DNA of 64,000 bases from Acidobacteriota bacterium (GTDB lineage Bacteria > Acidobacteriota > UBA6911 > RPQK01 > JAJDTT01). The stretch spans positions 352,001 to 416,000 of the forward strand of contig CBDCJH010000002.1 in assembly GCA_965217775.1 (NCBI GenBank), given 5' to 3'. Numbering within the stretch: the first letter of the stretch is position 1; each line of letters begins with the position of its first letter. The position numbers were made by a program, and so were the translations under genes. Under the pieces are notes generated by a model that was not told the origin of the DNA, made no database searches, and saw only the letters and a list, made by a program, of their open reading frames with translations. Below are positions 41,831 through 63,096 of the stretch, piece by piece.

Positions 41831-41852
41831 GTAGTAGACTGTCCCCAAGGCA

Positions 41853-53390: not shown

Positions 53391-56300
53391 ATGGAATCCA
53401 TGCCATTGGGACTGAAACCCAGAACCGAGTTGATCCTGATTCTCCTGCTCTGCGCAGGCGGCCCGCTTCGGGGCCAGACCGTCGAAGGGTCGCTGAGGCT
53501 GCTGATCGGGGACGGAACCGGCGCCGTGGCGGGAGCGGCCGCCGAAGCGGTGCAGGAAGAGACCAACCGGCGGCGGACCGGCGTCGCCGACCGGGACGGC
53601 CACCTGTTGATCCCGCTTCTCCCGTCCGGGACCTACCGTCTTGAAGTTTCCCACGCCGGCTACAGGAAGCATGTGGAGAAGTTCTCCCTGCGGGTCAACG
53701 AGCGGTTGGAGCTTCGAGTGACACTGCAGCCGGGTGAACTGACCGAAGAGGTGGTGGTCCTGGAGAGCCGGGGATGGCTCAAAAGGGACTCGCTGGCGCT
53801 GGGCAGCGTGATCGAGAACTCGCAGATCGCGGGCCTGCCTCTGGATGGGAGGAACTTCTTCGAGCTGAGCCTGCTGCTTCCGGGGAGTGCTCCGGCGGCG
53901 CCCGGATCGGCCGGTTCGGTCCGTGGAGACTTCGCGTTGAACATCAACGGACAGCGCGAGGCGTCCAACAGCTTCTTGTTGGACGGTGTCTACAACGGAG
54001 ACCCCAAGCTCAACGGCATCGGCGTCAATCCTCCCGTCGACGCCATCCGGGAGTTCGAAGTGCTCATGGGCACCTATGACGCCTCGTTCGGACGCAACGT
54101 GGGCAGTCAGATCAACGTGGTGACCAAGTCGGGCGGCAACCGGGTCCACGGTACCGTTTACGGTTTCTTCCGGAACGCGGCGCTGGATGCCCGGAACTAC
54201 TTCTCGTTGCCTCAGGGGCCTGACCCGGAGTATCGGCGAAGCCAGTTCGGGTTCTCGCTGGGAGGGCCCGTGGTCCCGAACCGGACCTTCTTCTTTGCCG
54301 ATTACGAAGGCCGGCGCGTTCGGCAGGGAGTCACCCGGGGCACCATGGTTCCCACTCTGGCCGAACGCTCCGGTGATTTTTCCGGCTCCTCCGGTCCGCT
54401 GCCGGTGAATCCTTTGACCCGCCAGCCGTTTCCCGGGAATGCGATCCCGTCCCCGTGGATTCATCCCACGGGCCACGCCATCGCTCAGCTCTATCCCGAC
54501 CCCAACCGGTCCGGGGAGGTTCCCAACTTCGTCTCCTCCCCCACCCTGCAGGATCGGGACGACCATTTCGACGTGAGAATCGATCACGCTGCGAGTCCAT
54601 CCTCGAATCTGGCCCTGCGCTACAGCTTCGGGGACCGGGACCTCTTCGATCCCTTTTCCGGTCCTCTCTTCTCAGCCGTGCCGGGATACGGAACCGATGT
54701 CCCGAGGCGGGCCCAGAACCTGGTCTTCAGCGAGTCGCATACCTTCACATCCCGGTTCCTGAATCAGGTGCGGTTCGCCTTCAACCGGGTTGCGGCCGGC
54801 GCTTTCCAGGAGAACATGGGCCGGAGCATCAACGGGGATGTGGGCTTGCCCGAGCTTTCCGACCGCCCCCGGGACCTGGGGATGAGCTTCATCACCGTCT
54901 CCGGATTTTCGTCCCTGGGGGACGAATACAACAATCCCCAGCACAGCGCTTCCGACACCTTTCAGATCCTGAACCATTCCACTTACGCCAGCGGCAAGCA
55001 TCTCTGGCAAGTGGGCGCGGACTTCCGGATCGTCCGGCAGGACGCCTACCGGGACGTCCAGTCCCGCGGCTTTCTCAACTTCGTGGGCCAGACCGGAATC
55101 ACCGGAAACGGCCTGGCCGATCTGCTGCTGGGTCTGCCCTCCCTGACGGGCGGAGCGCAGCTCGACAATCCCCAGCATCTGCGTAACCGGAGCTACAGTT
55201 TCTTCGTCCAGGACCATTTCAAGCTGAGGCCCAACCTGACGCTGGCTCTTGGGGTCCGCTATGAATACAACTCACCGCCCGTCGACAAGGACGATCGGGC
55301 CAACGTCTACGATCCGGAGAGCGGATCGCTGGTCGGTGTCGGAACCGGCGGCGTGCCCCGGGGAGGCTATCTGCCCGACCGGAACAACTGGGCTCCCCGG
55401 ATCGGCTTGGCCTGGGGACTTGATCGGGGTGGACGCACGGTGCTCCGGACCGGATACGGAGTCTTCTACGACCAGTCGCCCCTGGCGCCGGGGGAGGGCC
55501 TGTATTTCAATCCCCCGTATTTCGATTTCCGTCTTTTCTTCCCGCTGCCCGGGTTGCCGTTGACGCTGTATGACCCGTTTCCGAGGAACTACCCCTTTCA
55601 ACTGCCCCCTTCGGTCCTCTTCTACCAGCGGGACCTGGCCCAGGCCTACAGCCAGCACTGGAACCTGAATTTGCAGCGGGAGCTGGGAAGCCGCCAGATG
55701 ATCGAGGTGGGCTACGTCGGTTCCAAGGGGACCAAGCTCTTGACGGCGCGCGACTTCAACCAGCCGCGTCCCAGTCCCGTGTGGCCCAATCCCCGGCCGG
55801 TCCCGCAGTTCGACGACATCAACAAGCTGGAATCCCGCGGGAACTCCGGCTACCACTCGCTCCAGGCGAGGTTCAACCGCAGGTTGAGTTCCGGATTTTC
55901 GCTGCTTGCCTCCTACAGTTGGGCCAAGTCCATCGATGACTCTTCCAGCTTCTTCTCCAGCACCGGCGACCCCAACTTTCCCCAGGACAGTTGGAACGTC
56001 GGGACCGAGCGGGCTCGGTCCAACTTCGACCTGACCCACCGGCTTTCGGTGAGTTATTCCTGGGAGATTCCCATCGGCCGGGGGCGGTCCCTCCTGGGGA
56101 ACCTGGGGTGGTTTTCCACTCTGCTCGCAAACTGGCAGAGCTTCGGGATCCTGACCTTCCAGACGGGGCATCCGTTCACCGTGGCCCTGCTTCCGGAGAT
56201 CGACAACAGCAACACGGGACGATCGATTCTGGGTTTCGGAGCCAACGACAGGCCTCACCGGACCGGTACCGGAGCGATCTCCAACCCCGGCCCGGATCAG

Positions 56301-56585
56301 TGGTTCGACAGCCGGGCCTTCGTTTTCCCCCGCTACGGCAGTTTCGGCAACTCGGGAAGGAACATTCTCGAAGGGCCCGGATACGCGACGGTGGACCTTT
56401 CTCTGGTGCGGGATACGAGGATTTCCGAAGAGGCGACGGTTCAGTTCCGGGCCGAGTTCTTCAACCTCCTGAACCGGCCCAATCTGCACCTCCCGGATCT
56501 GTTTCTGGGCTCACCCACCTTCGGCCGGATCCTCTCGGCAGGCGAGCCCCGGCACGTTCAGTTGGGCCTCAAGCTGTTGTTCTGA
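53391..56585 (+). CDS. TonB-dependent receptor, Oar-like, with N-terminal carboxypeptidase-regulatory-like domain
   Basis: LPLDGRNF..L..LLPG, NSFLLDG, PPVDAIREF, NVVTKSG, NNWAPRIG and C-terminal PRHVQLGLKLLF. Confidence 0.92.
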   Translation: MESMPLGLKPRTELILILLLCAGGPLRGQTVEGSLRLLIGDGTGAVAGAAAEAVQEETNRRRTGVADRDGHLLIPLLPSGTYRLEVSHAGYRKHVEKFSLRVNERLELRVTLQPGELTEEVVVLESRGWLKRDSLALGSVIENSQIAGLPLDGRNFFELSLLLPGSAPAAPGSAGSVRGDFALNINGQREASNSFLLDGVYNGDPKLNGIGVNPPVDAIREFEVLMGTYDASFGRNVGSQINVVTKSGGNRVHGTVYGFFRNAALDARNYFSLPQGPDPEYRRSQFGFSLGGPVVPNRTFFFADYEGRRVRQGVTRGTMVPTLAERSGDFSGSSGPLPVNPLTRQPFPGNAIPSPWIHPTGHAIAQLYPDPNRSGEVPNFVSSPTLQDRDDHFDVRIDHAASPSSNLALRYSFGDRDLFDPFSGPLFSAVPGYGTDVPRRAQNLVFSESHTFTSRFLNQVRFAFNRVAAGAFQENMGRSINGDVGLPELSDRPRDLGMSFITVSGFSSLGDEYNNPQHSASDTFQILNHSTYASGKHLWQVGADFRIVRQDAYRDVQSRGFLNFVGQTGITGNGLADLLLGLPSLTGGAQLDNPQHLRNRSYSFFVQDHFKLRPNLTLALGVRYEYNSPPVDKDDRANVYDPESGSLVGVGTGGVPRGGYLPDRNNWAPRIGLAWGLDRGGRTVLRTGYGVFYDQSPLAPGEGLYFNPPYFDFRLFFPLPGLPLTLYDPFPRNYPFQLPPSVLFYQRDLAQAYSQHWNLNLQRELGSRQMIEVGYVGSKGTKLLTARDFNQPRPSPVWPNPRPVPQFDDINKLESRGNSGYHSLQARFNRRLSSGFSLLASYSWAKSIDDSSSFFSSTGDPNFPQDSWNVGTERARSNFDLTHRLSVSYSWEIPIGRGRSLLGNLGWFSTLLANWQSFGILTFQTGHPFTVALLPEIDNSNTGRSILGFGANDRPHRTGTGAISNPGPDQWFDSRAFVFPRYGSFGNSGRNILEGPGYATVDLSLVRDTRISEEATVQFRAEFFNLLNRPNLHLPDLFLGSPTFGRILSAGEPRHVQLGLKLLF

Positions 56586-56633
56586 AACCCGGATCCCGAC
56601 ATCAAACGGGACCAACCAAACCCGATCGTACGC

Positions 56634-56658
56634 ATAGGGGCACCCCTTGTGGGTGCCC
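56634..56658 (+). repeat. REP copy (duplicate at 57806-57830)
   Basis: ATAGGGGCACCCCTTGTGGGTGCCC, same family as 47485-47508. Confidence 0.75.
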
Positions 56659-56715
56659 TCTTTCCTAGGGGATGCTTTGCCTACGGAAAGTGCCTACGCC
56701 TACGCGCGCCTACGC

Positions 56716-56738
56716 GGAAAGGGACAGTCTCGATTCCC
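56716..56738 (+). repeat. 'Left' site copy 1
   Basis: GGAAAGGGACAGTCTCGATTCCC; also at 56904-56926, 57857-57879 (one mismatch) and partially at 59332-59345. Confidence 0.8.
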
Positions 56739-56754
56739 GGAACGGAACGGGAAC

Positions 56755-56890
56755 GAACAGTGGACCTTTGGCAAATGGATGGAAGTCCGGCGGACTTTCC
56801 GCACATTGGGAGGACAATTCAGTCTATTGGACGAGACAAGTGATCTGGGTCGTTCGGTGCCGCGGTGGCAGAATCGACGGACGGAGATCA
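56755..56890 (+). repeat. 136-bp duplicate of the region downstream of the transposase (57970-58105)
   Basis: Direct repeat at offset 1215 with two substitutions seen; contains the hairpin AAGTCCG-G-CGGACTT. Confidence 0.88.
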
Positions 56891-56903
56891 CGTACGCGCG
56901 CGC

Positions 56904-56926
56904 GGAAAGGGACAGTCTCGATTCCC
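56904..56926 (+). repeat. 'Left' site copy 2
   Basis: GGAAAGGGACAGTCTCGATTCCC, ending 9 nt before the start of the duplicated receptor fragment. Confidence 0.8.
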
Positions 56927-56935
56927 GCGCTTTGC

Positions 56936-57757
56936 CCGCGTCCCAGTCCCGTGTGGCCCAATCCCCGGCCGGTCCCGCAGTTCGATGACATCAACAAGCT
57001 GGAATCCCGCGGGAACTCCGGCTACCACTCGCTCCAGGCGAGGTTCAACCGCAGGTTGAGTTCCGGATTTTCGCTGCTTGCCTCCTACAGTTGGGCCAAG
57101 TCCATCGATGACTCTTCCAGCTTCTTCTCCAGCACCGGCGACCCCAACTTTCCCCAGGACAGTTGGAACGTCGGGACCGAGCGGGCTCGGTCCAACTTCG
57201 ACCTGACCCACCGGCTTTCGGTGAGTTATTCCTGGGAGATTCCCATCGGCCGGGGGCGGTCCCTCCTGGGGAACCTGGGGTGGTTTTCCACTCTGCTCGC
57301 AAACTGGCAGAGCTTCGGGATCCTGACCTTCCAGACGGGGCATCCGTTCACCGTGGCCCTGCTTCCGGAGATCGACAACAGCAACACCGGACGATCGATT
57401 CTGGGTTTCGGAGCCAACGACAGGCCTCACCGGACCGGTACCGGAGCGATCTCCAACCCCGGCCCGGATCAGTGGTTCGACAGCCGGGCCTTCGTTTTCC
57501 CCCGCTACGGCAGTTTCGGCAACTCGGGAAGGAACATTCTCGAAGGGCCCGGATACGCGACGGTGGACCTTTCTCTGGTGCGGGATACGAGGATTTCCGA
57601 AGAGGCGACGGTTCAGTTCCGGGCCGAGTTCTTCAACCTCCTGAACCGGCCCAATCTGCACCTCCCGGATCTGTTTCTGGGCTCACCCACCTTCGGCCGG
57701 ATCCTCTCGGCAGGCGAGCCGCGGCACGTTCAGTTGGGCCTCAAGCTGTTGTTCTGA
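56936..57757 (+). pseudogene. 5'-truncated duplicate of the TonB receptor 3' end (last ~273 codons)
   Basis: 56936-57862 matches 55764-56690 (offset 1172). Three substitutions found by eye, all synonymous. No native start. Confidence 0.9.
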
Positions 57758-57856
57758 AACCCGGATCCCGACATCAAACGGGACCAACCAAACCCGATCG
57801 TACGCATAGGGGCACCCCTTGTGGGTGCCCTCTTTCCTAGGGGATGCTTTGCCTAC

Positions 57857-59325
57857 GGAAAGGGACAGTCTCGATTTCCGGAACGGAACGGAACGGGAAC
57901 GGGGAACGAACGGGAACGCGGGAACGAACGGGAACGCGTTATAAGACTTGAGAATCCCGCCCGGAATCAGAACAGTGGACCTTTGGCAAATGGATGGAAG
58001 TCCGGCGGACTTTCTGCACATTGGGAGGACAATTCAGTCTATTGGACGACACAAGTGATCTGGGTCGTTCGGTGCCGCGGTGGCAGAATCGACGGACGGA
58101 GATCAGGCGAGTCTACGTGACAAATGCGTGCGAGCGCTGCTCCCGCAGGGAAAACAGCACTCCGCCCAGTTGGGGGATGGGGTGTCGGCGACGCCGATAT
58201 CGACCTTGCTTTCGATACGTCTCCAGCAGTTGCGCCACTTTCTCTGCCGGACCGACGGCCAATCCGTCCGTCAGAAATCGCAAACGACGGCGAAAGGCTC
58301 CGGCACGGGTAAATCCACGTCGCTGCTCCTGATGGAGGATCCACCGGGGGATTGCGGCCTGGTTCTCCCGGGTGGGGACGGCTCCTCGATAGTACAAGCG
58401 AGCCCGGTAACTCCTGTACACGTCGGTTCCGGGATCCGAGGGGAACAGTTCCTCCAATGGAATCAGGTCGTGATCCTTGCCGGTGAGTCTCCAGCGGGCT
58501 GAGCCCCACTTCCATTGCTCGGGCCGCTTGACCAGTCCGGCTCGGACGGCGTTGAGCTCCACGTAAAGAATGGCGTCTTGGACCGCTTCGGTTCCCAATA
58601 GTTCCGGGTTCTTGAAACGTTCACTCCAAAAATGGCCTCGCCGTCGAAACTGGTGGTTGAACCACACGGCATACAGCCCGTCCACGTTCTGCATCAGTTT
58701 CGACACGTCAAAGAGACGCTGGTTGAAAGCCTTCCATTGGGCGACGGTCCAATCGGCGGTTTTCTTCTCTACCTTTCGCCCATAAAGCTTGTCGGCGCTC
58801 TCCATCAACTCCTTGCGGGACAAGGAGCGAGGCTTCTCAAAATGGACGACGAAGTGGAAGTGATTGCCCATGATCTGAAACGCGGCCAAACGACACCGGT
58901 AGACACTAACGTAGAACAACATCATGTCTAGGAGTTTGCGACGGGCTCGCCGGTCTTCGAAGGGGAACCAATCGGTCCAGCCAGTGACTCGATTGGTGAG
59001 GTGATAGAAGGCGGCTTCCTTGCTTTTGTGTCGCGCGGTTCGGGGCATGGGCACGGTCCTCGGTTCACCGGACTCGGACTAGCAGGGGAGTCGGAGTCGG
59101 ATCACCCTCTCACCCTCTGATGACAACAACGATTCAGAACTGAGAAAAGCGAAGGAGACTAAAGTAATTCAGCACATCTCGCGTTTCCGGGAGCAACGGA
59201 GGCAATTCGACCAAGTGACCACCTAAGTCGTCATGGCAGCCGAAGGAGCCGGCACCTTTGTGGTCTGATCTGCCCCTGCCGTTCCTGCCGTTCCTGCCGT
59301 TCCAGAACAACAGACTGTCCCCTTC
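57857..59325 (-). mobile_element. Y1/HUH transposase unit bounded by imperfect inverted end sites
   Basis: Left AAGGGACAGTCT-N8-GGAACGG (from 57860). Right, read on the minus strand, AAGGGGACAGTCT-N8-GGAACGG (59323-59296). The two enclose the transposase gene. Confidence 0.65.
58113..59048 (-). CDS. Y1 (HUH) tyrosine transposase, REP-associated (RAYT)-like
   Basis: MPRTAR start, YHLTNR, IMGNHFHF (HUH), GHFWSERF, YVELNAVRAGLV (catalytic Tyr region) and WKWGSA. Confidence 0.88.
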   Translation of the reverse strand: MPRTARHKSKEAAFYHLTNRVTGWTDWFPFEDRRARRKLLDMMLFYVSVYRCRLAAFQIMGNHFHFVVHFEKPRSLSRKELMESADKLYGRKVEKKTADWTVAQWKAFNQRLFDVSKLMQNVDGLYAVWFNHQFRRRGHFWSERFKNPELLGTEAVQDAILYVELNAVRAGLVKRPEQWKWGSARWRLTGKDHDLIPLEELFPSDPGTDVYRSYRARLYYRGAVPTRENQAAIPRWILHQEQRRGFTRAGAFRRRLRFLTDGLAVGPAEKVAQLLETYRKQGRYRRRRHPIPQLGGVLFSLREQRSHAFVT

Positions 59326-59346
59326 TTTTTGCAGTCTCGATTCCCC

Positions 59347-60129
59347 TCACCTTTGGGCCGCATCCCTGGTTCCCACGATCAATACAGTTTGTATAGGCAA
59401 CAGGAAGTCTCCCCCCTTCCGCCTGATGTTCAAGGCCTCCAGGAATGAACTCGGGGCCTTCTGCAGACGAGCTCGGATCTCCGCTTCCGCCTCTGTTCCA
59501 GAGGATGCTATCTCGCACCACCTGCGTACAGTCTGCCCCTGAGGTCGCTCCGATAATCTAGCCTTCAACACTTCCACCTTCAGCCCCCTGCTCTCGAATA
59601 TGGATCTCCACCTCGCGGCCGTGTAGCTCCGAACGTGGGTTGGATCATGAAGAAGTTCCAGCTTGTGATTAAACTCGTCAACGTCAGCGTTTTCGTGTCC
59701 TTCGAGATCGATAATCGCTACCCGCCCGTCGCTCTTCGTGAGCCGAACCATTTCTGCCACCGCGCGATCCACATCATCGAAATGGTGGGGGGCCAGCCGC
59801 GATAAAACCAAGTCGAACTGGTGTCCCCGCAGGGGAATCGAATCAGCGTACGCCTCGACAGTCTCCACCTCGATCCCCCGCTCCACTGCCAATCGCCGAA
59901 AGGCGTCCAACATGCTGGGCGCCGGGTCAACTCCTACGAGTCTCCCGGCACAGGTGGCAAAGGACAGCGCCAGGTGGCCAGCGCCACACGCGACGTCACA
60001 TACGGATGCCCCAGGCTCCAGATTCACGAGCTGATGAAGAAGCCTGATCGTTGGGCTCATGGAGTGGACTTCGCTCGTCGCATAGTTATCAGCAAATTTG
60101 TCGAAGCGATCACGCGATTCGTTCGTCAC
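59347..60129 (-). CDS. Class I SAM-dependent methyltransferase
   Basis: DVACGAG, GVD, FDLVLSRLAPHHF, DPTHVR motifs; RBS AGGAGG upstream of the GTG start. Confidence 0.88.
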   Translation of the reverse strand: MTNESRDRFDKFADNYATSEVHSMSPTIRLLHQLVNLEPGASVCDVACGAGHLALSFATCAGRLVGVDPAPSMLDAFRRLAVERGIEVETVEAYADSIPLRGHQFDLVLSRLAPHHFDDVDRAVAEMVRLTKSDGRVAIIDLEGHENADVDEFNHKLELLHDPTHVRSYTAARWRSIFESRGLKVEVLKARLSERPQGQTVRRWCEIASSGTEAEAEIRARLQKAPSSFLEALNIRRKGGDFLLPIQTVLIVGTRDAAQR

Positions 60130-60278
60130 TTTGCACCCTCCTTCTGGAACCTCCGATCTCGACCCAGCGGTTCATCAGGGCCGAGTCCACTCGTTTTGAG
60201 AAGACTCCCATGTCCTCTTGCAAACCTGTTCAAGTGACCCGCCTATCCGTTGATGCATGAAGACGGCAATAATCTCCT

Positions 60279-60570
60279 CGTGGAATGCCTCCCCCAACAG
60301 TGTTGGCTTTAGCGGAAGAATGACTCCCCCGTGGAATGCTTCCCCCAACAGTGTTGGCTTTAGCGGAAGAATGACTCCCGTTAGCGGAAGAATGACTCCC
60401 CGAAAAATAGACTGTCCCCTTCTGGCTGTGCTGACTTCGCCGGCTGCGAACCGACGGGAGAGCCGGTCAGAGGGGAGAGAAGCGGACTGTCCCCTTCTGA
60501 GGGGAGAGAAGCGTGCCCAGGTCCGAGTTCATGCCCTGACTTCGCTGGCTGCGAACCGACGGGAGAGCCG
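60279..60570. repeat. Nested local duplications around two 'right' sites
   Basis: 51-bp unit twice plus a ~21-bp partial (60279-60401); AGACTGTCCCCTTC (60409-22); GACTGTCCCCTTC (60485-97) between two GAGGGGAGAGAAGCG copies; 35-bp repeat 60431-65 / 60536-70. Confidence 0.85.
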
Positions 60571-60571
60571 A

Positions 60572-62293
60572 TCAGGCCTCGACCGAAAGGGTCCGCATTC
60601 GGTTGACGGCCATGGCCACCTCGTAGCGCCGGGGCCGGGCCAGATTGCCCACCTTGAACCGAGACAGGATCTCCAGCCCTCCGGCGTCCAGATCGTCCAG
60701 GAGCCGGGTCAGAGCCTGCTCCAGGGTCAGATCGTCCGTAAAGTAACGAGTCGCCATATGGTGGATGGCGAGTCCGATGGCCCGGGTCTGTGAGGAATCC
60801 ACCAACTGTTCCAGGGCGGACAGATCGATGTCGGCGCGGCCGTAGGAGAGTTTGCGCAATCCCCTGGCGTCGATCTTGACGGCCCGCCTGCCCCGCCTGG
60901 CGTCGAAGCTGCGTGCCCGGGGACGGCGCCGGAGCACGCGCCCGAAGTCGTCACCTCCTTCCCGCCGGCGCCGGCTGGGCTGTTCCGCGACGATGGATCG
61001 GGCCTCGGCGCTGACGTCCAGGGGACGATATTCGTCCATCATCACCACCGAGTCGGCCACGTCGAAGTAGTCTCCGGACCCGCCCATGACCAGGATCGTC
61101 GAGACGCCGTAGTCTCGAAACATCTGCCGGACCTTGTCGATGAAGGGGGTGATGGGCTCCTTGGGTTTGGCCACCAATGCCTGCATCCGGGCGTCCCGGA
61201 TGATGAAGTTGGTGGCAGAGGTGTCCTCGTCCATGAGCAGGAGCCGGGAGCCCATTTCCAGGGCCTCCACGATGCCGGCCGCCTGTGAGGTGGACCCGGA
61301 CGCATTCTCGGTGGAAAAAGTCTCCGTTTCTCTACCGAGCGGGAGGTTTCGAATGAAGGGGGACAGATCCACGTTCTCCACGGAGCGTCCGTCTTCGGCC
61401 CGTATCTTGAGAGCGGACCCGATGGTGACCACTCCTTCCCGTCCGTCGCCGGGGATCTGGTTGTAGACGCCCCGCTCCAGTGCGTTAAGCAGAGTGGTCT
61501 TTCCATGGAAGCCCCCTCCCACGATGAGGGTGACGCCCGATTTCAAACCCATTCCCCGAACCGGTCCCGCGTTCGGCCTTTCGAGTTCGACTTCCAGGTT
61601 CGCGGGAGATCGGAAATCGATCACCGGTTGCGCTGGGGTGGGGACGAGAGGGCGATCGTCCACGCCGCTGCGGCGTGGCAGGGAGGACCCGTTGGCCAAG
61701 AAGGCCACGAGTCCCCGCTTGACAAGCTGGTTGCGGAGCGCTTCCTGGTCTTCCACGACCCGGATCTGCCTCCGGAGCTGCTCTCGAGGAAGGCGGGCGT
61801 AGAAGACGGACCGGCGAACGATCCGGGGGAGTTCCGAAAGCAGCATCTCCGCCGCTTGGCGGCCACGGATCGACCGCCCGGCGGCGGGAAGACCGGCCGT
61901 GAAGCGGGCCTCCAGAAATCTGCGGTGGATGACGACGCTGTTGGCCTCCAGGACCTCCTGGTTCCCGCGATCGATCTCGAAGAGGCCGCTGCGTCCGGTC
62001 CCGCGGCGCCCCGAGGAGGTCACGCGGATGGCCCGATGAAAGGCCCGGGTCAGGAAGTCGGCCAAGGCAATGCGCCGGACCCGGCTCGTGCTCAGGGAAT
62101 CGGGAAAGCCGGCTCGGGCCGACTCCACGCGAACGCTCATCCGGGAGGGAGCGGCGAAAGGGTCCCCTTGCACGTGGTCGACCGAGAGCTGGAACCCGCC
62201 CAGGTCGTACGTTCCCCGGATGTCCCGGTAAGCCTTGTAGCCGCGGCCGTCGATCCGTCTGAGGATCGTTTCCAGATCCGCTCCCGTCGCCAT
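60572..62293 (-). CDS. ABC-class ATPase domain protein (COG3044-like)
   Basis: IDGRGYKAY, DHVQGDPFA, GGGFHGKTT, IRAEDGR, ASGSTSQA and DEDTSATNF motifs. The start may be 62308. Confidence 0.85.
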   Translation of the reverse strand: MATGADLETILRRIDGRGYKAYRDIRGTYDLGGFQLSVDHVQGDPFAAPSRMSVRVESARAGFPDSLSTSRVRRIALADFLTRAFHRAIRVTSSGRRGTGRSGLFEIDRGNQEVLEANSVVIHRRFLEARFTAGLPAAGRSIRGRQAAEMLLSELPRIVRRSVFYARLPREQLRRQIRVVEDQEALRNQLVKRGLVAFLANGSSLPRRSGVDDRPLVPTPAQPVIDFRSPANLEVELERPNAGPVRGMGLKSGVTLIVGGGFHGKTTLLNALERGVYNQIPGDGREGVVTIGSALKIRAEDGRSVENVDLSPFIRNLPLGRETETFSTENASGSTSQAAGIVEALEMGSRLLLMDEDTSATNFIIRDARMQALVAKPKEPITPFIDKVRQMFRDYGVSTILVMGGSGDYFDVADSVVMMDEYRPLDVSAEARSIVAEQPSRRRREGGDDFGRVLRRRPRARSFDARRGRRAVKIDARGLRKLSYGRADIDLSALEQLVDSSQTRAIGLAIHHMATRYFTDDLTLEQALTRLLDDLDAGGLEILSRFKVGNLARPRRYEVAMAVNRMRTLSVEA

Positions 62294-62424
62294 CGGTCGT
62301 AACCTCATCGAACTCTCCAGCCGGCCGCCGCTTCCGGTCGTCCACATCGCGCAGCGTCCGGCCGACCCACTGTACCGGCGCGTTCCGGGTATAATCCACC
62401 CCGTTTGGTGGCGTCTCCACGGGC

Positions 62425-63096
62425 GTGAGAAATGTGGTGCAGGAACTCCCGGTGAAAGTCTCGTCGAGCACGGGCCGTACGCCATGGGGGGTCTTGTCCG
62501 GGGCTCTTGGCGTCGTCCGGGGCCTCTACGATTGGGTGCTCTCGTTGGCCCACCGGCGGTACGCGGCCGCCATTCTGTTCGTGATCGCCTTCGCCGAGTC
62601 GTCCTTCTTCCCGGTTCCCCCCGACGTGCTTCTGATCGCCCTGGCTTTGGGCGCCCCCGGCCGGGCCCTGGGATTCGCGGCCATCTGTACGGCCGGGTCG
62701 GTGGCGGGGGGCGCGTTGGGCTACGTGCTTGGCCTCTACTTCTACGAGCTGGTGGGCCGGCCCATCATCGAGATCTACGGCGCCCAGAGTGCGTACCTGG
62801 ACGTCCAGGCCCTATACCGGGAATGGGACGCCATCGCCATCTTCGTCGCGGGCTTCACACCGCTTCCGTACAAGGTCTTCACCATCGCGGCGGGGGCGTT
62901 CCGGATCGATTTCCCGACCTTCATCCTGGTTTCGGCCGTCAGCCGGGGAGCTCGATTCCTGCTGGTCGGGGCACTCATTTTCCGATTCGGTCCCGGGGTC
63001 AAACAGATCATCGACCGCTACTTCAGTTGGCTGACCGTGGTCTTCGCGGTTCTCCTGATCGGTGGATTCCTGCTCCTGAGATATGCTATTTTTTAG
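62425..63096 (+). CDS. DedA/YqaA (VTT-domain) membrane protein
   Basis: [34 protein letters not shown] and SRGARF motifs; start uncertain. Confidence 0.88.

What the first reader, a model, noticed from the sequence alone, without database searches (positions are those of the whole stretch)
56716..60500. Candidate HUH-transposase-associated gene-cassette array delimited by short left and right sites
Seen: one core (AGACTGTCCC / GGGACAGTCT) recurs with a strict orientation. Left sites GGAAAGGGACAGTCTCGATTYCC lie at 56716, 56904 and 57857, with a partial CAGTCTCGATTCCC at 59332. Right sites (A)GACTGTCCCCTTC lie at 59312, 60409 and 60485. This gives [L 57857 - transposase - R 59325], followed about 6 nt later by [L' 59332 - methyltransferase - R 60422]. 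Both genes are on the minus strand, and the methyltransferase stop (59347) is 1 nt from L'. Established: Y1/HUH enzymes (IS200/IS605 TnpA, RAYT) act on ssDNA hairpins or REP palindromes; I do not know of a described case that builds gene-sized L-gene-R units. Inference: the enzyme may capture, excise or reorder passenger genes in an integron-like way using these sites.
Basis: partly seen in the sequence, partly recalled or inferred. Interest (0 to 1): 0.85.

Follow-up and report, generated by a model that had tools for sequence, protein, structure and literature searches.

The report
Tyrosine transposase sites bounding gene cassettes
A known kind of transposase gene framed by short inverted repeats sits here, and the same short repeat also marks the borders of gene-sized blocks that differ between related bacteria, which hints at a gene-shuffling system not yet described.

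Summary
GGGACAGTCT occurs 6 times in the window against 0.2 expected, at the stated places.

The unit [L-transposase-R] is a known arrangement, a "TIRtron". This is a RAYT-like Y1/HUH gene (TIRYT) framed by inverted repeats that carry GGGGWSAS, here GGGGACAG (PMC3733652, passages). G000 holds 11 full copies, all framed this way. The copy in the window is syntenic in 6 of 8 congeners.

The cassette idea is partly supported:
- The methyltransferase is a discrete 877-bp unit lying between two directly repeated R-type sites.
- It is absent from this locus in the 7 congeners where the locus can be read, and present elsewhere in all 8 congeners, usually starting at a site.
- Genome-wide, 178 sites cluster in arrays. 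Neighbouring sites share orientation in 64 pairs against 13.
- In one array, 56 of 96 homology end-points between species fall within 40 nt of a site, where 4.5% is expected.
- A second array is 10.4 kb in G000 and empty in G001.
- No integron integrase was found.

Catalysis by the Y1 enzyme, circular intermediates and the cleavage point are inferred, not shown. The site hairpins are weak.

The parts
53391..56585 (+). TonB-dependent-receptor-like outer membrane protein gene (left conserved flank)
   Evidence: Pfam OMP_b-brl_4, E 1.6e-236. It is 89-92% identical at the DNA level in 7 congeners, with a partial match in G008.
55764..58107 (+). Two tandem copies of a 1172-bp unit. Each holds the last 820 bp of the receptor gene, the spacer, an L (RE-type) site and about 170 bp of the transposase 3' untranslated end. 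The new joint itself carries a site (56904-56926).
   Evidence: D1, D2. One search gives the start of identity at 55764/56936 and 3 mismatches before the sites. The duplication is not present in G007, G006, G005 or G004.
56716..56738 (+). L (RE-type) site, copy 1: GGAAAGGGACAGTCTCGATTCCC
   Evidence: D4
56904..56926 (+). L (RE-type) site, copy 2. It lies at the novel joint of the tandem duplication.
57857..57879 (+). L (RE-type) site, copy 3. It is the inverted repeat downstream of the transposase gene and is followed by GGAACG-type short repeats (57880-57936).
   Evidence: I1. The same placement, 158-317 nt (one copy 778) after the stop codon, is seen at all 11 gene copies.
58113..59054 (-). 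Y1/HUH tyrosine transposase of the TIRYT (RAYT-like) kind. It is 311-313 aa long (ATG at 59048). The HUH motif is at H65/H67 and the catalytic Tyr at Y164.
   Evidence: Pfam Y1_Tnp at 30.4 bits against a cut-off of 23. NCBIfam REP_Tyr_transpos at 48.2 bits against a cut-off of 80. Nearly invariant N64 H65 H67 Y164 N168 in 41 sequences. AlphaFold model with pLDDT 90.8. Best fold match is 4ER8, TnpA-REP, with E 2.8e-6 and TM 0.74 over the target.
59304..59326 (-). R (LE-type) site. It is the inverted repeat upstream of the transposase gene and is preceded by CCGTTCC repeats (59277-59303).
   Evidence: I1, D8. The same placement, 121-290 nt before the ATG, is seen at all 11 copies.
59332..59345 (+). 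L' remnant, CAGTCTCGAT + TCCC. It is the right part of an RE-type site and begins exactly after GGGA. The last 4 bases are shared with the methyltransferase unit.
   Evidence: (D10)
59342..60218 (-). The 877-bp methyltransferase unit. It holds the class I SAM methyltransferase CDS at 59347-60129, a 90-nt leader, and 5 nt (GGGGA) after the stop codon.
   Evidence: Pfam Methyltransf_11, E 1.2e-20. A second copy in G000 is 91% identical with the same ends. There are 1-3 copies in each of 8 congeners with ends at about the same points and in different contexts.
60276..60401 (.). Tandem repeats (51 nt x2, 21 nt x3) between the methyltransferase leader and the next site
   Evidence: D5, D9
60399..60423 (-). 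R-type site 2, in the same orientation as 59312. It is the upstream border of the methyltransferase unit.
   Evidence: D8
60424..60484 (.). Short site-bounded filler made of rearranged copies of the sequence downstream of the third site (60431-60470 = 60536-60575; 60467-60484 = 60496-60513)
   Evidence: D11, D12
60485..60498 (-). R-type site 3 (GGACTGTCCCCTTC). Its right flank equals the right flank of the single LE site in G007.
60572..62485 (-). ABC_ATPase / MRB1590-type P-loop protein gene (right conserved flank)
   Evidence: Pfam ABC_ATPase, E 9.6e-122. It is 88-95% identical in 8 congeners.

Best explanation
The window holds one of 11 paralogous 'TIRtrons' of this genome. A TIRtron is a gene for a RAYT-like Y1/HUH tyrosine transposase (TIRYT) framed by inverted copies of a 14-nt word, GAARGGGACAGTC. 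Further site-bounded pieces of DNA have been added at its outer sites. On the R side these are an 877-bp methyltransferase unit and a 76-bp filler, each followed by another copy of the site in direct orientation. On the L side the addition is a 1172-bp duplication whose joint carries a site.

The same word occurs about 180 times in the genome. It punctuates arrays of co-oriented, gene-sized, mostly accessory units: toxin-antitoxin pairs, oxidoreductase, methyltransferase and unknown genes. These units are present, absent, duplicated or re-ordered between species, with borders that fall inside the site.

Most likely mechanism (inferred):
- The Y1 enzyme nicks and rejoins one strand within or next to the invariant GGGACAGTC.
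- Two directly repeated sites can therefore release the DNA between them, and a site can receive it.
- The enzyme's own gene sits between inverted sites and so is not released.

What is shown: the anatomy, the copy numbers, the link between enzyme gene and word, and the coincidence of homology breaks with sites. What is not shown: catalysis by this enzyme, single-stranded or circular intermediates, and the exact cut.
For: 1. Enzyme:
- It has the Y1/HUH fold and motifs.

2. Link between gene and word:
- 11 of 11 full gene copies have a + site 121-290 nt before the ATG and a - site 158-778 nt after the stop codon.
- 42 of 178 sites lie within 1 kb of a transposase gene.
- RAARGGGACAGTC occurs 149 times in G000, 27-127 times in the 8 congeners and 57 times in G023. 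G023 belongs to another family but has a transposase 79% identical. The other 31 genomes hold 10 copies or fewer; the reversed control gives 0-3.
- Homologues of 38-59% identity keep GGGGACAG about 120-340 nt upstream, and 4 of 8 loci have it in inverted copy downstream, with different following bases.
- The sister-genus variant AAGGGGACAGAC occurs 10-22 times per genome and clusters within 40-60 kb of its transposase gene.

3. Site-bounded units:
- G007, G006, G005 and G004 have receptor-TIRtron-ABC without the methyltransferase.
- The right flank of G007's LE equals the right flank of the third R site in G000. The extra DNA therefore sits exactly between repeated sites.
- Methyltransferase copies in 8 congeners share the ends 59342/59343 and about 60218. 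8 of 12 copies examined start directly at a GGGACAGTC site or a one-base-degenerate one.
- A 1383-bp oxidoreductase unit occurs twice in one array with identical site-to-site spacing.
- In the array at 2.11 Mb, 56 of 96 BLAST end-points lie within 40 nt of a site against 4.5% expected. Counted as distinct clusters this is 10 of 38 (binomial P 5e-6).
- Unit order differs in G006, and units are missing in G004 and G001.
- The array at 1.81 Mb is 10.4 kb in G000. It is 184 bp with no site in G001, two sites in G007 and three sites in G002.
- Away from transposase genes, neighbouring sites within 6 kb share orientation in 64 pairs against 13. 43 of those 64 spacings are 400 bp or more.
- Sites occupy 46 of 129 50-kb bins against 84 expected.
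- The 58 genes inside units are short (median 161 aa against 360) and have atypical codon use (P 5e-8).

4. No integron integrase:
- The best match scores 80.6 bits against a cut-off of 265, and no tyrosine recombinase match lies in the arrays.
Against: - There is no direct evidence of excision or insertion. Only metagenome contigs were available. They show a form joining 59326 to 60503, which may simply be another strain.
- The arrays are not next to a transposase gene.
- The site hairpins are weak as ssDNA (-0.5 to -6.1 kcal/mol, z from -1.5 to +1.05).
- The test of whether the two arms of a released unit would pair better than other arm pairs of the same array was negative (mean difference -0.4 kcal/mol, Wilcoxon P 0.88).
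- Strand bias relative to replication is modest: 55 against 30 sites, with mixed clusters.
- The 3' end of the methyltransferase unit (…TGAGGGGA) is followed by unrelated sequence in all 12 copies, never by CAGTC. A simple site-by-site exchange in the core does not explain that end.
- Several insertions are flanked by long direct duplications of the target. A plain conservative exchange does not predict this.
- In G001 the transposase body is inverted although the outer sites keep their own inner arms. That inversion did not cross over in the core.
- The congeners are related, so the counts across them are not independent.
Confidence: 0.55

Rival explanations
1. This is an ordinary TIRtron plus a passive family of dispersed short repeats. 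The repeats spread into intergenic DNA of accessory islands as REP-like elements do. The mosaic arises from host recombination, replication slippage or deletion at these short repeats. There is no dedicated capture or release of genes.
For: - Dispersed TIR repeat families around TIRYT genes, in dimers and clusters, are already described (PMC3733652).
- Dense runs of sites with 30-200 bp spacing and no genes occur next to transposase copies and in G023.
- A naive locus in G007 and G002 has 2-3 sites and no gene units, so sites can arrive on their own.
- Long flanking duplications look like replication errors.
- The arm-pairing test was negative.
Against: - Recombination between 14-27-nt repeats is inefficient. 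Yet the same unit ends recur in many contexts: the methyltransferase in 12 copies, and the oxidoreductase and TumE/HTH units in several genomes.
- Neighbouring sites share orientation in 64 pairs against 13. Passive spread does not predict this.
- Units are re-ordered, not only lost.
Confidence: 0.27
2. The sites are core sites of another recombinase, for example a Xer-like tyrosine recombinase as with pdif modules of Acinetobacter plasmids. They would have 7-bp inverted arms around a 9-bp spacer, and the TIRYT gene would merely be a frequent cargo or neighbour.
For: - The array-type consensus GAGAAGG-GGACAGTCA-CCTTCTC has the arm-spacer-arm layout.
- The genome encodes several tyrosine recombinases.
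Against: - None of the recombinase matches lies in or beside the arrays examined.
- The word tracks close TIRYT homologues across 41 genomes, including the separate lineage G023.
- The word varies together with distant TIRYT clades.
- The L and R types lack a matching second arm.
Confidence: 0.08
3. The sites act at the RNA level, as terminator or stabiliser stem-loops at gene ends. They are co-oriented only because the genes are co-oriented.
For: - 149 of 185 sites are intergenic.
- Array-type sites usually lie about 50 nt after a stop codon, and their orientation correlates with that of the flanking genes: 35 opposite/opposite against 17 same/same.
Against: - The loop is invariant while the stems vary and are weak.
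- No T-run follows the stem.
- The same word forms the inverted repeats of all 11 transposase genes.
- Homology between genomes breaks at the sites.
Confidence: 0.05
4. The three L sites and the 1172-bp repeat are an assembly artefact, so the local 'array' is smaller than it looks.
For: - The two copies differ at only 3 of 927 positions.
- No contig shown bridges 56716-56940.
Against: - The copies differ by a 25-nt insertion and by a distinct joint that carries its own site.
- Contigs of public runs match 57734-58049 and 60350-60590 without a difference (records 20, 24, 32).
- The genome is in 2 contigs.
Confidence: 0.05

Closest known systems
TIRtron / TIRYT (TIR-associated tyrosine transposase; Di Nocera, De Gregorio, Rocco 2013, PMC3733652). 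Equated with TnpA-Y1 subclass 2.1 by Quentin et al. 2018, PMC6006769.
   Same: - It is a RAYT-like Y1/HUH gene framed by inverted repeats at similar distances on both sides.
- The repeats hold GGGGWSAS, here GGGGACAG.
- A sharply defined group occurs in Acidobacteria.
- The repeats can form moderately abundant dispersed families, in dimers or clusters.
(Passages read.)
   Different: - There are 11 copies per genome at 86-99% identity. Subclass 2.1 averages 1.9 copies and subclass 2.3 averages 3.9 (Table 1 text).
- The protein is 311-313 aa, with about 98 residues between HUH and Tyr. That is closer to subclass 2.3 (325 aa), for which no flanking repeats were found.
- The passages I read do not describe repeats as borders of shuffled gene-sized units.
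- I could not see the figures and supplements that list the published TIR sequences.
REPtron: RAYT with REP/REPIN (Nunvar 2010; Bertels and Rainey 2011; Bertels 2017, PMC5581495; E. coli TnpA-REP structure 4ER8)
   Same: - The best structural match is 4ER8.
- The gene is framed by inverted copies of a repeat that is also dispersed in intergenic DNA.
- The gene is syntenic, and apparently vertically inherited, across a genus.
   Different: - There is no GTAG/GT[AG]G tag and no stable palindrome.
- The score is below NCBIfam's cut-off.
- There are many gene copies, against 1.3-1.8 per replicon.
- Dispersed sites are single and co-oriented at kb spacing, not inverted pairs (REPINs).
IS200/IS605 (IS608 TnpA 'peel and paste')
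   Same: - Y1/HUH fold and a Pfam Y1_Tnp match.
- The proposed chemistry is the same: one-strand cleavage, a covalent 5' link to Tyr, and rejoining of two sites on the same strand to release a circle.
   Different: - The ends here are inverted, not direct subterminal hairpins.
- The Tyr motif is YVELNA (class 2), not Y...Q.
- There is no TnpB.
- The gene copies are not near-identical.
- The resident gene does not look mobile.
Integrons and CALINs (IntI with attC-bounded cassettes)
   Same: - Arrays of co-oriented short sites separate mostly single-gene units.
- The units are rich in toxin-antitoxin and unknown genes.
- Content and order differ between related genomes.
- Unit borders fall inside the site.
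   Different: - There is no IntI.
- Sites are about 27 nt, against 55-140 nt for attC (size recalled from my own knowledge), and have no R/L boxes.
- There is no attI or common promoter.
- Arrays sit at many loci, unlinked to the enzyme gene.
- Genes lie in either orientation relative to the site.
pdif (XerC/D) modules of Acinetobacter plasmids (recalled from my own knowledge, not read here)
   Same: Short recombination sites frame discrete gene modules that recur in different contexts.
   Different: - Those sites are 28-bp Xer sites in alternating orientation and are acted on by host tyrosine recombinases.
- Here the sites are co-oriented and tied to a HUH enzyme gene.

Membership tests
TIRtron / TIRYT | Y1 transposase homologous to RAYTs, with HUH motif and catalytic tyrosine | tested here: met
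   H65, H67 and Y164 are nearly invariant in 41 sequences. Pfam and NCBIfam matches. Fold match to 4ER8.
TIRtron / TIRYT | Gene framed by terminal inverted repeats unrelated to GTAG REPs, at similar distances on both sides | tested here: met
   Inverted repeat I1, 29 nt at 79%. 11 of 11 copies are framed. No GTAG tag in the consensus.
TIRtron / TIRYT | TIR carries GGGGWSAS | tested here: met
   R-type, LE-type and array-type sites read GGGGACAG. L/RE-type sites read AGGGACAG, with one G fewer. Distant homologues keep GGGGACAG or GGGGACAC.
TIRtron / TIRYT | Belongs to the published Acidobacteria TIRYT group (T. saanensis, K. versatilis and others) | not tested
   The sequences of that group were in a supplement I could not open. 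Sources name relatives 'transposase [Acidobacteriota bacterium]' and 'REP element-mobilizing transposase RayT'.
RAYT / REPtron (NCBIfam NF047646) | Score at or above the curated cut-off of the equivalog model | tested here: not met
   48.2 bits against a cut-off of 80, although the whole profile (3-145 of 146) is matched.
RAYT / REPtron (NCBIfam NF047646) | Flanking REPs: stable palindromes with a GT[AG]G tag | tested here: not met
   No tag is present. ssDNA folding energy is -0.5 to -6.1 kcal/mol, z -1.5 to +1.05.
RAYT / REPtron (NCBIfam NF047646) | About one gene copy per replicon | tested here: not met
   11 full copies and 1 fragment in G000. Congeners show 3-11 matches. Published mean is 1.3-1.8.
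IS200/IS605 | Subterminal hairpins of like orientation at both ends on one strand | tested here: not met
   The two ends are inverted copies.
IS200/IS605 | Class 1 tyrosine motif (Y...Q) and near-identical copies within a genome | tested here: not met
   The motif is YVELNAVRAG. Copies are 86-99% identical in protein.
Integron | IntI integrase | tested here: not met
   TIGR02249 best match is 80.6 bits against a cut-off of 265.
Integron | attC sites (long imperfect palindromes with R and L boxes) | tested here: not met
   Conserved sequence at unit borders is limited to about 27 nt.
Integron | Co-oriented sites separating gene cassettes whose content and order vary between relatives | tested here: met
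   64 pairs share orientation against 13. Two arrays were compared across 8 congeners.

The most novel reading that the evidence does not exclude
A family of domesticated Y1/HUH enzymes (TIRYTs) runs a gene-cassette system analogous to integrons but mechanistically unrelated. Short GGGACAGTC-type sites are cut and rejoined on one strand. Any DNA between two co-oriented sites can then leave as a circle carrying one reconstituted site and can enter another site. The enzyme genes are kept in place by inverted sites. This would give Acidobacteriota, and perhaps other phyla with TIRYTs, many small chromosomal cassette arrays that exchange toxin-antitoxin, defence and metabolic genes.
Probability: 0.3. 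Interest if true: 0.9.

Novelty: new variant of a known kind. Interest (0 to 1): 0.7.

Why it matters
TIRYT and subclass 2.1/2.3 Y1 proteins are common, yet no role has been assigned to them. The 2018 survey found no DNA partner for these subclasses (passages).

This genus offers three things:
- a clear partner, a 14-nt word;
- many gene copies;
- natural 'before and after' states of site-bounded gene units across nine genomes.

If the enzyme does move these units, it would be a second, independent route to cassette-based genome plasticity. It would use HUH chemistry, and its sites are short enough to be useful as tools. If it does not, the case still shows that TIR repeat families mark the borders of accessory DNA. 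That helps in reading genome islands in Acidobacteriota.

Tried and rejected
- Arm-pairing test. I asked whether the 5' arm of the next site pairs better with the 3' arm of a given site, as a released circle would need. Against genome-wide random pairs the result looked positive (-10.6 against -8.8 kcal/mol, P 0.002). The effect vanished with within-array controls (P 0.88), so I dropped it.
- Replication-strand bias. The split was 55 against 30 sites, with clusters going both ways. This is too weak to use.
- Sequence search of solved structures with the single protein found nothing relevant. The fold search replaced it.
- Public runs. All 12 holders are kept as contigs of metagenomes, and 4 were laid.
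  - Joints 56591/57763 to 60572 only reproduce the receptor-3'/ABC-3' fragment junction known from congeners.
  - Joints from 59153-59327 to about 60398 most likely come from paralogous copies.
  - Parts without cover, and the habitat labels of small-share runs, are not used as evidence.
- The exact cut. The methyltransferase end (…GGGGA) and the L' remnant (CAGTC…) suggest GGGA^CAGTC. The core is identical in all partners, however, and the 3' end is never followed by CAGTC. The position therefore stays open.
- Site-specific inversion in G001. I rejected this as a core crossover because the inner arms did not swap.
- The window match at 41836 and about 75-89 further GGGACAGTC matches genome-wide are chance level.
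- I did not request the supplements and figures of PMC3733652 and PMC6006769, because supplements are closed. They may list the same TIR for Acidobacteria and could lower the novelty.
- My memory that S. maltophilia REPs border genomic islands was not confirmed in the passages read.
- G016 is an unpublished genome. It is one of the 31 'other' genomes, and the statement holds without it (30 of 30).

Full report
**1. The observation.**
GGGACAGTCT lies at 56721, 56909 and 57862 on the + strand and at 59312 and 60409 on the - strand. That is 6 matches in the window against 0.20 expected, and none of 100 shuffles reached 6. The sixth match, at 41836, has no purine arm and is probably chance.

The third 'R' site (60485) has a one-base variant of the core. 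The partial L' is at 59332-59345. L and R are inverted copies of one word, GAARGGGACAGTCT (I1 and I20-I22).

There are three L sites because 55764-56935 is repeated in tandem. This 1172-bp unit holds the receptor 3' end, the spacer, a site and the transposase 3' untranslated end. The novel joint itself carries a site.

**2. The genes.**
- 58113-59054 (-) is a Y1/HUH protein. Pfam Y1_Tnp scores 30.4 bits (cut-off 23). NCBIfam 'REP-associated tyrosine transposase' scores 48.2 bits, below its cut-off of 80 but over the whole profile.
- N64, H65, H67, Y164 and N168 are nearly invariant in 41 sequences down to 22% identity.
- An AlphaFold model (pLDDT 90.8) matches E. coli TnpA-REP bound to a REP hairpin best (4ER8, E 2.8e-6, TM 0.74 over the target). 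IS608, ISDra2 and IS200 transposases follow.
- Residues 185-313 form an extra C-terminal part.
- Sources name relatives 'REP element-mobilizing transposase RayT' or 'transposase [Acidobacteriota bacterium]'.
- 59347-60129 (-) is a class I SAM methyltransferase.
- The flanks are a TonB-dependent-receptor-like gene and an ABC_ATPase/MRB1590-type gene.

**3. [L-transposase-R] is a known arrangement.**
- G000 (6.43 Mb, 2 contigs) has 11 full copies of the gene at 86-99% protein identity, plus one fragment.
- In gene orientation every copy has an 'LE' site, RGAARGGGACAGTCT(A/G)TTTTTCC, 121-290 nt before the ATG. Every copy also has an inverted site after the stop codon, mostly 'RE' GGGAATCGAGACTGTCCCTTTCC at 158-317 nt (778 nt in one copy). 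These sites are often present in 2-4 tandem copies.
- Di Nocera et al. 2013 (PMC3733652; passages) named exactly this a TIRtron. It is a RAYT-like 'TIRYT' gene framed by inverted repeats that share GGGGWSAS. They reported a sharply defined Acidobacteria group and 'moderately abundant' dispersed TIR families.
- GGGGACAG fits that consensus.
- Quentin et al. 2018 (PMC6006769; passages and sections 20 and 22) equate TIRYTs with subclass 2.1. They also describe a long (325 aa), multi-copy subclass 2.3, and they found no REP-like partner for either subclass.
- Our protein (NHFH, YVELNA, about 98 residues between the motifs) resembles these two subclasses.

**4. This copy is an old resident.**
- The order receptor-TIRtron-ABC-ATPase is kept in G007, G006, G005, G004, G003 and G001.
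- In G002 the two halves lie apart, each beside a transposase copy. G008 is too fragmented to tell.
- DNA identity of the gene (81-94%) is like that of the flanks (88-95%).
- None of the 7 congeners in which the locus can be read has the methyltransferase or the 1172-bp duplication there.

**5. What was added in G000.**
- In G007 the single LE site is followed directly by GAGGGGAGAGAAGCG…. In G000 that same flank follows the third R site (60485).
- Between LE (59312) and that point lie two site-ended pieces. They are the methyltransferase piece (59326-60422) and a 76-bp filler made of rearranged flank sequence (D11 and D12).
- The methyltransferase unit proper is 877 bp (59342-60218). A second copy in G000 (C2:4422509-4423385) is 91% identical with the same ends.
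- Each of the 8 congeners has 1-3 copies elsewhere, with ends at about the same points.
- In gene orientation, 8 of the 12 copies begin directly at a GAGAAGGGGACAGTCACC-type site or a one-base-degenerate one. Upstream of the site the sequence differs between contexts.
- All 12 copies end at …TGAGGG(G)(A), a few bases after the stop codon. In 5 copies another site follows within 12-21 nt.
- Upstream and downstream contexts are combined in different ways. L019 and L022 share the upstream side, while L021 and L022 share the downstream side.

**6. The word genome-wide.**
- GGGACAGTC occurs 255 times in G000, where about 78 would be expected from base composition (my arithmetic). About 178 occurrences belong to families with a purine-rich 5' arm.
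- The families are LE-type (52), RE-type (15 + 5) and an array type, g.GAGAAGGGGACAGTCAC.TTCTCTC (68-94 depending on the filter). A separate palindromic family, GGGGGACAGTCTTGTCCCCC, has 14 members.
- 149 of 185 sites are intergenic.
- 42 sites lie within 1 kb of a transposase gene. The other 136 occupy 46 of 129 50-kb bins, against 84 expected.
- Neighbouring sites within 6 kb share orientation in 64 pairs against 13. 43 of the 64 spacings are 400 bp or more.
- The 58 genes inside such units are short (median 161 aa against 360) and atypical in codon use (P 5e-8).
- Their products include BrnT, TumE with an HTH partner, HigB/HigA, a VapBC-like pair, a Gfo/Idh/MocA oxidoreductase, and many without a Pfam family.

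**7. Are the sites borders of movable units? Array 1 (C2:2.110-2.1226 Mb, 10 sites, all in one orientation).**
- Array 1 follows conserved genes for a nitrilase-like protein, a CcmH-like protein and a hydrolase.
- Against 7 congeners, 56 of 96 BLAST end-points lie within 40 nt of a site, where 4.5% is expected. Counted as distinct end-point clusters this is 10 of 38 (P 5e-6). Kin and an internal duplicate inflate the raw count.
- A 1383-bp oxidoreductase unit occurs twice in the array with identical site-to-site spacing.
- In G006 the units stand in another order. In G004 and G001 several units are missing.
- Junction alignments show that sequence on one side of the 9-nt core goes with one unit and sequence on the other side with the neighbouring unit. 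The break therefore lies inside the site of about 27 nt.

**8. Are the sites borders of movable units? Array 2 (C2:1.8137-1.8228 Mb).**
- Array 2 is 10.4 kb in G000.
- In G001 the same flanks are 184 bp apart, with no site between them.
- In G007 two sites and no genes lie between the flanks.
- In G002 three sites and about 0.7 kb lie between the flanks.
- Units of array 2 recur at other loci in other genomes.

**9. Link between enzyme and word.**
- RAARGGGACAGTC counts are 149 in G000, 27-127 in the 8 congeners, and 57 in G023. G023 belongs to another family of the order, and its transposase is 79% identical.
- The other 31 genomes have 10 copies or fewer, and the reversed control gives 0-3. 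G016, an unpublished genome, is one of the 31, and the result stands without it.
- Homologues of 38-59% identity keep GGGGACAG or GGGGACAC about 120-340 nt upstream in 6 of 8 loci. 4 of the 8 have an inverted copy downstream. The following bases differ.
- The sister-genus variant AAGGGGACAGAC occurs 10-22 times per genome (control 1-7) and is clustered within 40-60 kb of the transposase gene.
- No integron integrase is present. The best match scores 80.6 bits against a cut-off of 265, and no tyrosine recombinase match lies in the arrays.

**10. Mechanism.**
Established for relatives (IS608 TnpA, E. coli TnpA-REP; titles of the solved structures, the rest from my own knowledge): Y1 enzymes cut one DNA strand, stay linked to the 5' end through tyrosine, and rejoin ends. 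Two sites on the same strand can therefore yield a circle and a sealed donor.

Inference for this system:
- The invariant GGGACAGTC with its 5' purine arm is the recognition and cleavage element.
- Co-oriented sites allow release and insertion of the DNA between them.
- The enzyme genes are framed by inverted sites and therefore stay put.

Against a simple form of this model:
- The hairpins are weak.
- The arm-pairing test was negative.
- The methyltransferase 3' end is never followed by CAGTC.
- Long target duplications flank several insertions.
- G001 has an inverted transposase body without arm exchange.
- Sites are joined to arbitrary sequence in some places. One site joins an internal point of the receptor gene, and four sites join different points of an IS1380-like gene fragment. 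This suggests one-ended or replicative events as well.

**11. Literature on the cassette behaviour.**
- Searches for RAYT or REP-associated tyrosine transposase with 'gene cassette', for HUH, integron-like and cassette array, for Acidobacteria with REP or RAYT, for TIRYT or TIRtron (3 papers hold the terms, 2 works), and for Y1 transposase, gene cassettes, IS200 and integron gave no paper that describes gene-sized units bounded by TIRYT or RAYT repeats.
- That statement covers listings and the passages named above. It does not cover subscription journals or supplements.

**12. Verdict.**
- The transposase unit is a new member of a known kind.
- The cassette-like use of its sites is well supported as a pattern and unproven as a mechanism.
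- I rate it a new variant of a known kind, with interest 0.7.

Noticed in passing
G000 genome-wide, e.g. C2:4379831, 2132807, 3528897: A separate palindromic family, GGGGGACAGTCTTGTCCCCC, has 14 copies, 13 of them intergenic. It shares the core but forms an 8-bp stem with a 4-nt loop. Its role is unknown.
   Followed up: no
L001:15578-16022 (G000 C2:2122578-2123022) and 9 further places in G000: Fragments of the C-terminal end of an IS1380-like transposase gene abut GGGACAGTC sites and are cut off at four different points (query positions 1, 97, 100, 249). Up to 15 or more copies occur in G006.
   Followed up: partly
L027 (G005), L028 (G004), L026 (G006), L025 (G007): In congeners the TIRtron between the receptor and ABC-ATPase genes is flanked by a direct duplication of the old receptor-3'/ABC-3' junction. 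In G004 and G005 this is 50-65 bp plus 56-59 bp. In G006 and G007 only the ABC fragment is repeated (235 and 87 bp).
   Followed up: partly
L029 (G001:C1:1652000-1656700): The transposase gene body is inverted relative to the flanks, while the outer RE-type and LE-type sites keep their place and their own inner arms. Four tandem LE-type sites are present.
   Followed up: partly
G023:C1:1.42-1.49 Mb: A genome of another family, with a 79% identical transposase, holds 57 copies of the word. Many lie in dense runs (14 sites in 1.5 kb, 20 sites in 2.2 kb) around its transposase gene. This looks like an acquired island.
   Followed up: no
G000 C2:4741165-4742624: An RE-type site and an inverted LE-type site lie 1459 bp apart and enclose a 236-aa non-transposase gene instead of the transposase. 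A remnant of the transposase 5' leader lies between the next two LE sites.
   Followed up: partly
G000 C2:1201932-1202870: One of the 11 transposase copies carries an in-frame TAG. It lies in a 10-kb cluster with two intact copies and six co-oriented LE-type sites.
   Followed up: no
window 60276-60401: Tandem repeats (51 nt x2, 21 nt x3) lie between the methyltransferase leader and the next site. They are absent from the second methyltransferase copy in G000.
   Followed up: no
window 59326 / 60503: Logan contigs of two metagenome runs of one study join these two points. This is a form with the transposase LE site followed directly by the ABC-side flank, as in G007. It may be another strain.
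   Followed up: no
G000 C2:5635604-5635789 and C2:4665981-4666208: Two further Y1_Tnp genes of other families (open frames of 240 and 225 aa) have no GGGACAGTC sites nearby.
   Followed up: no
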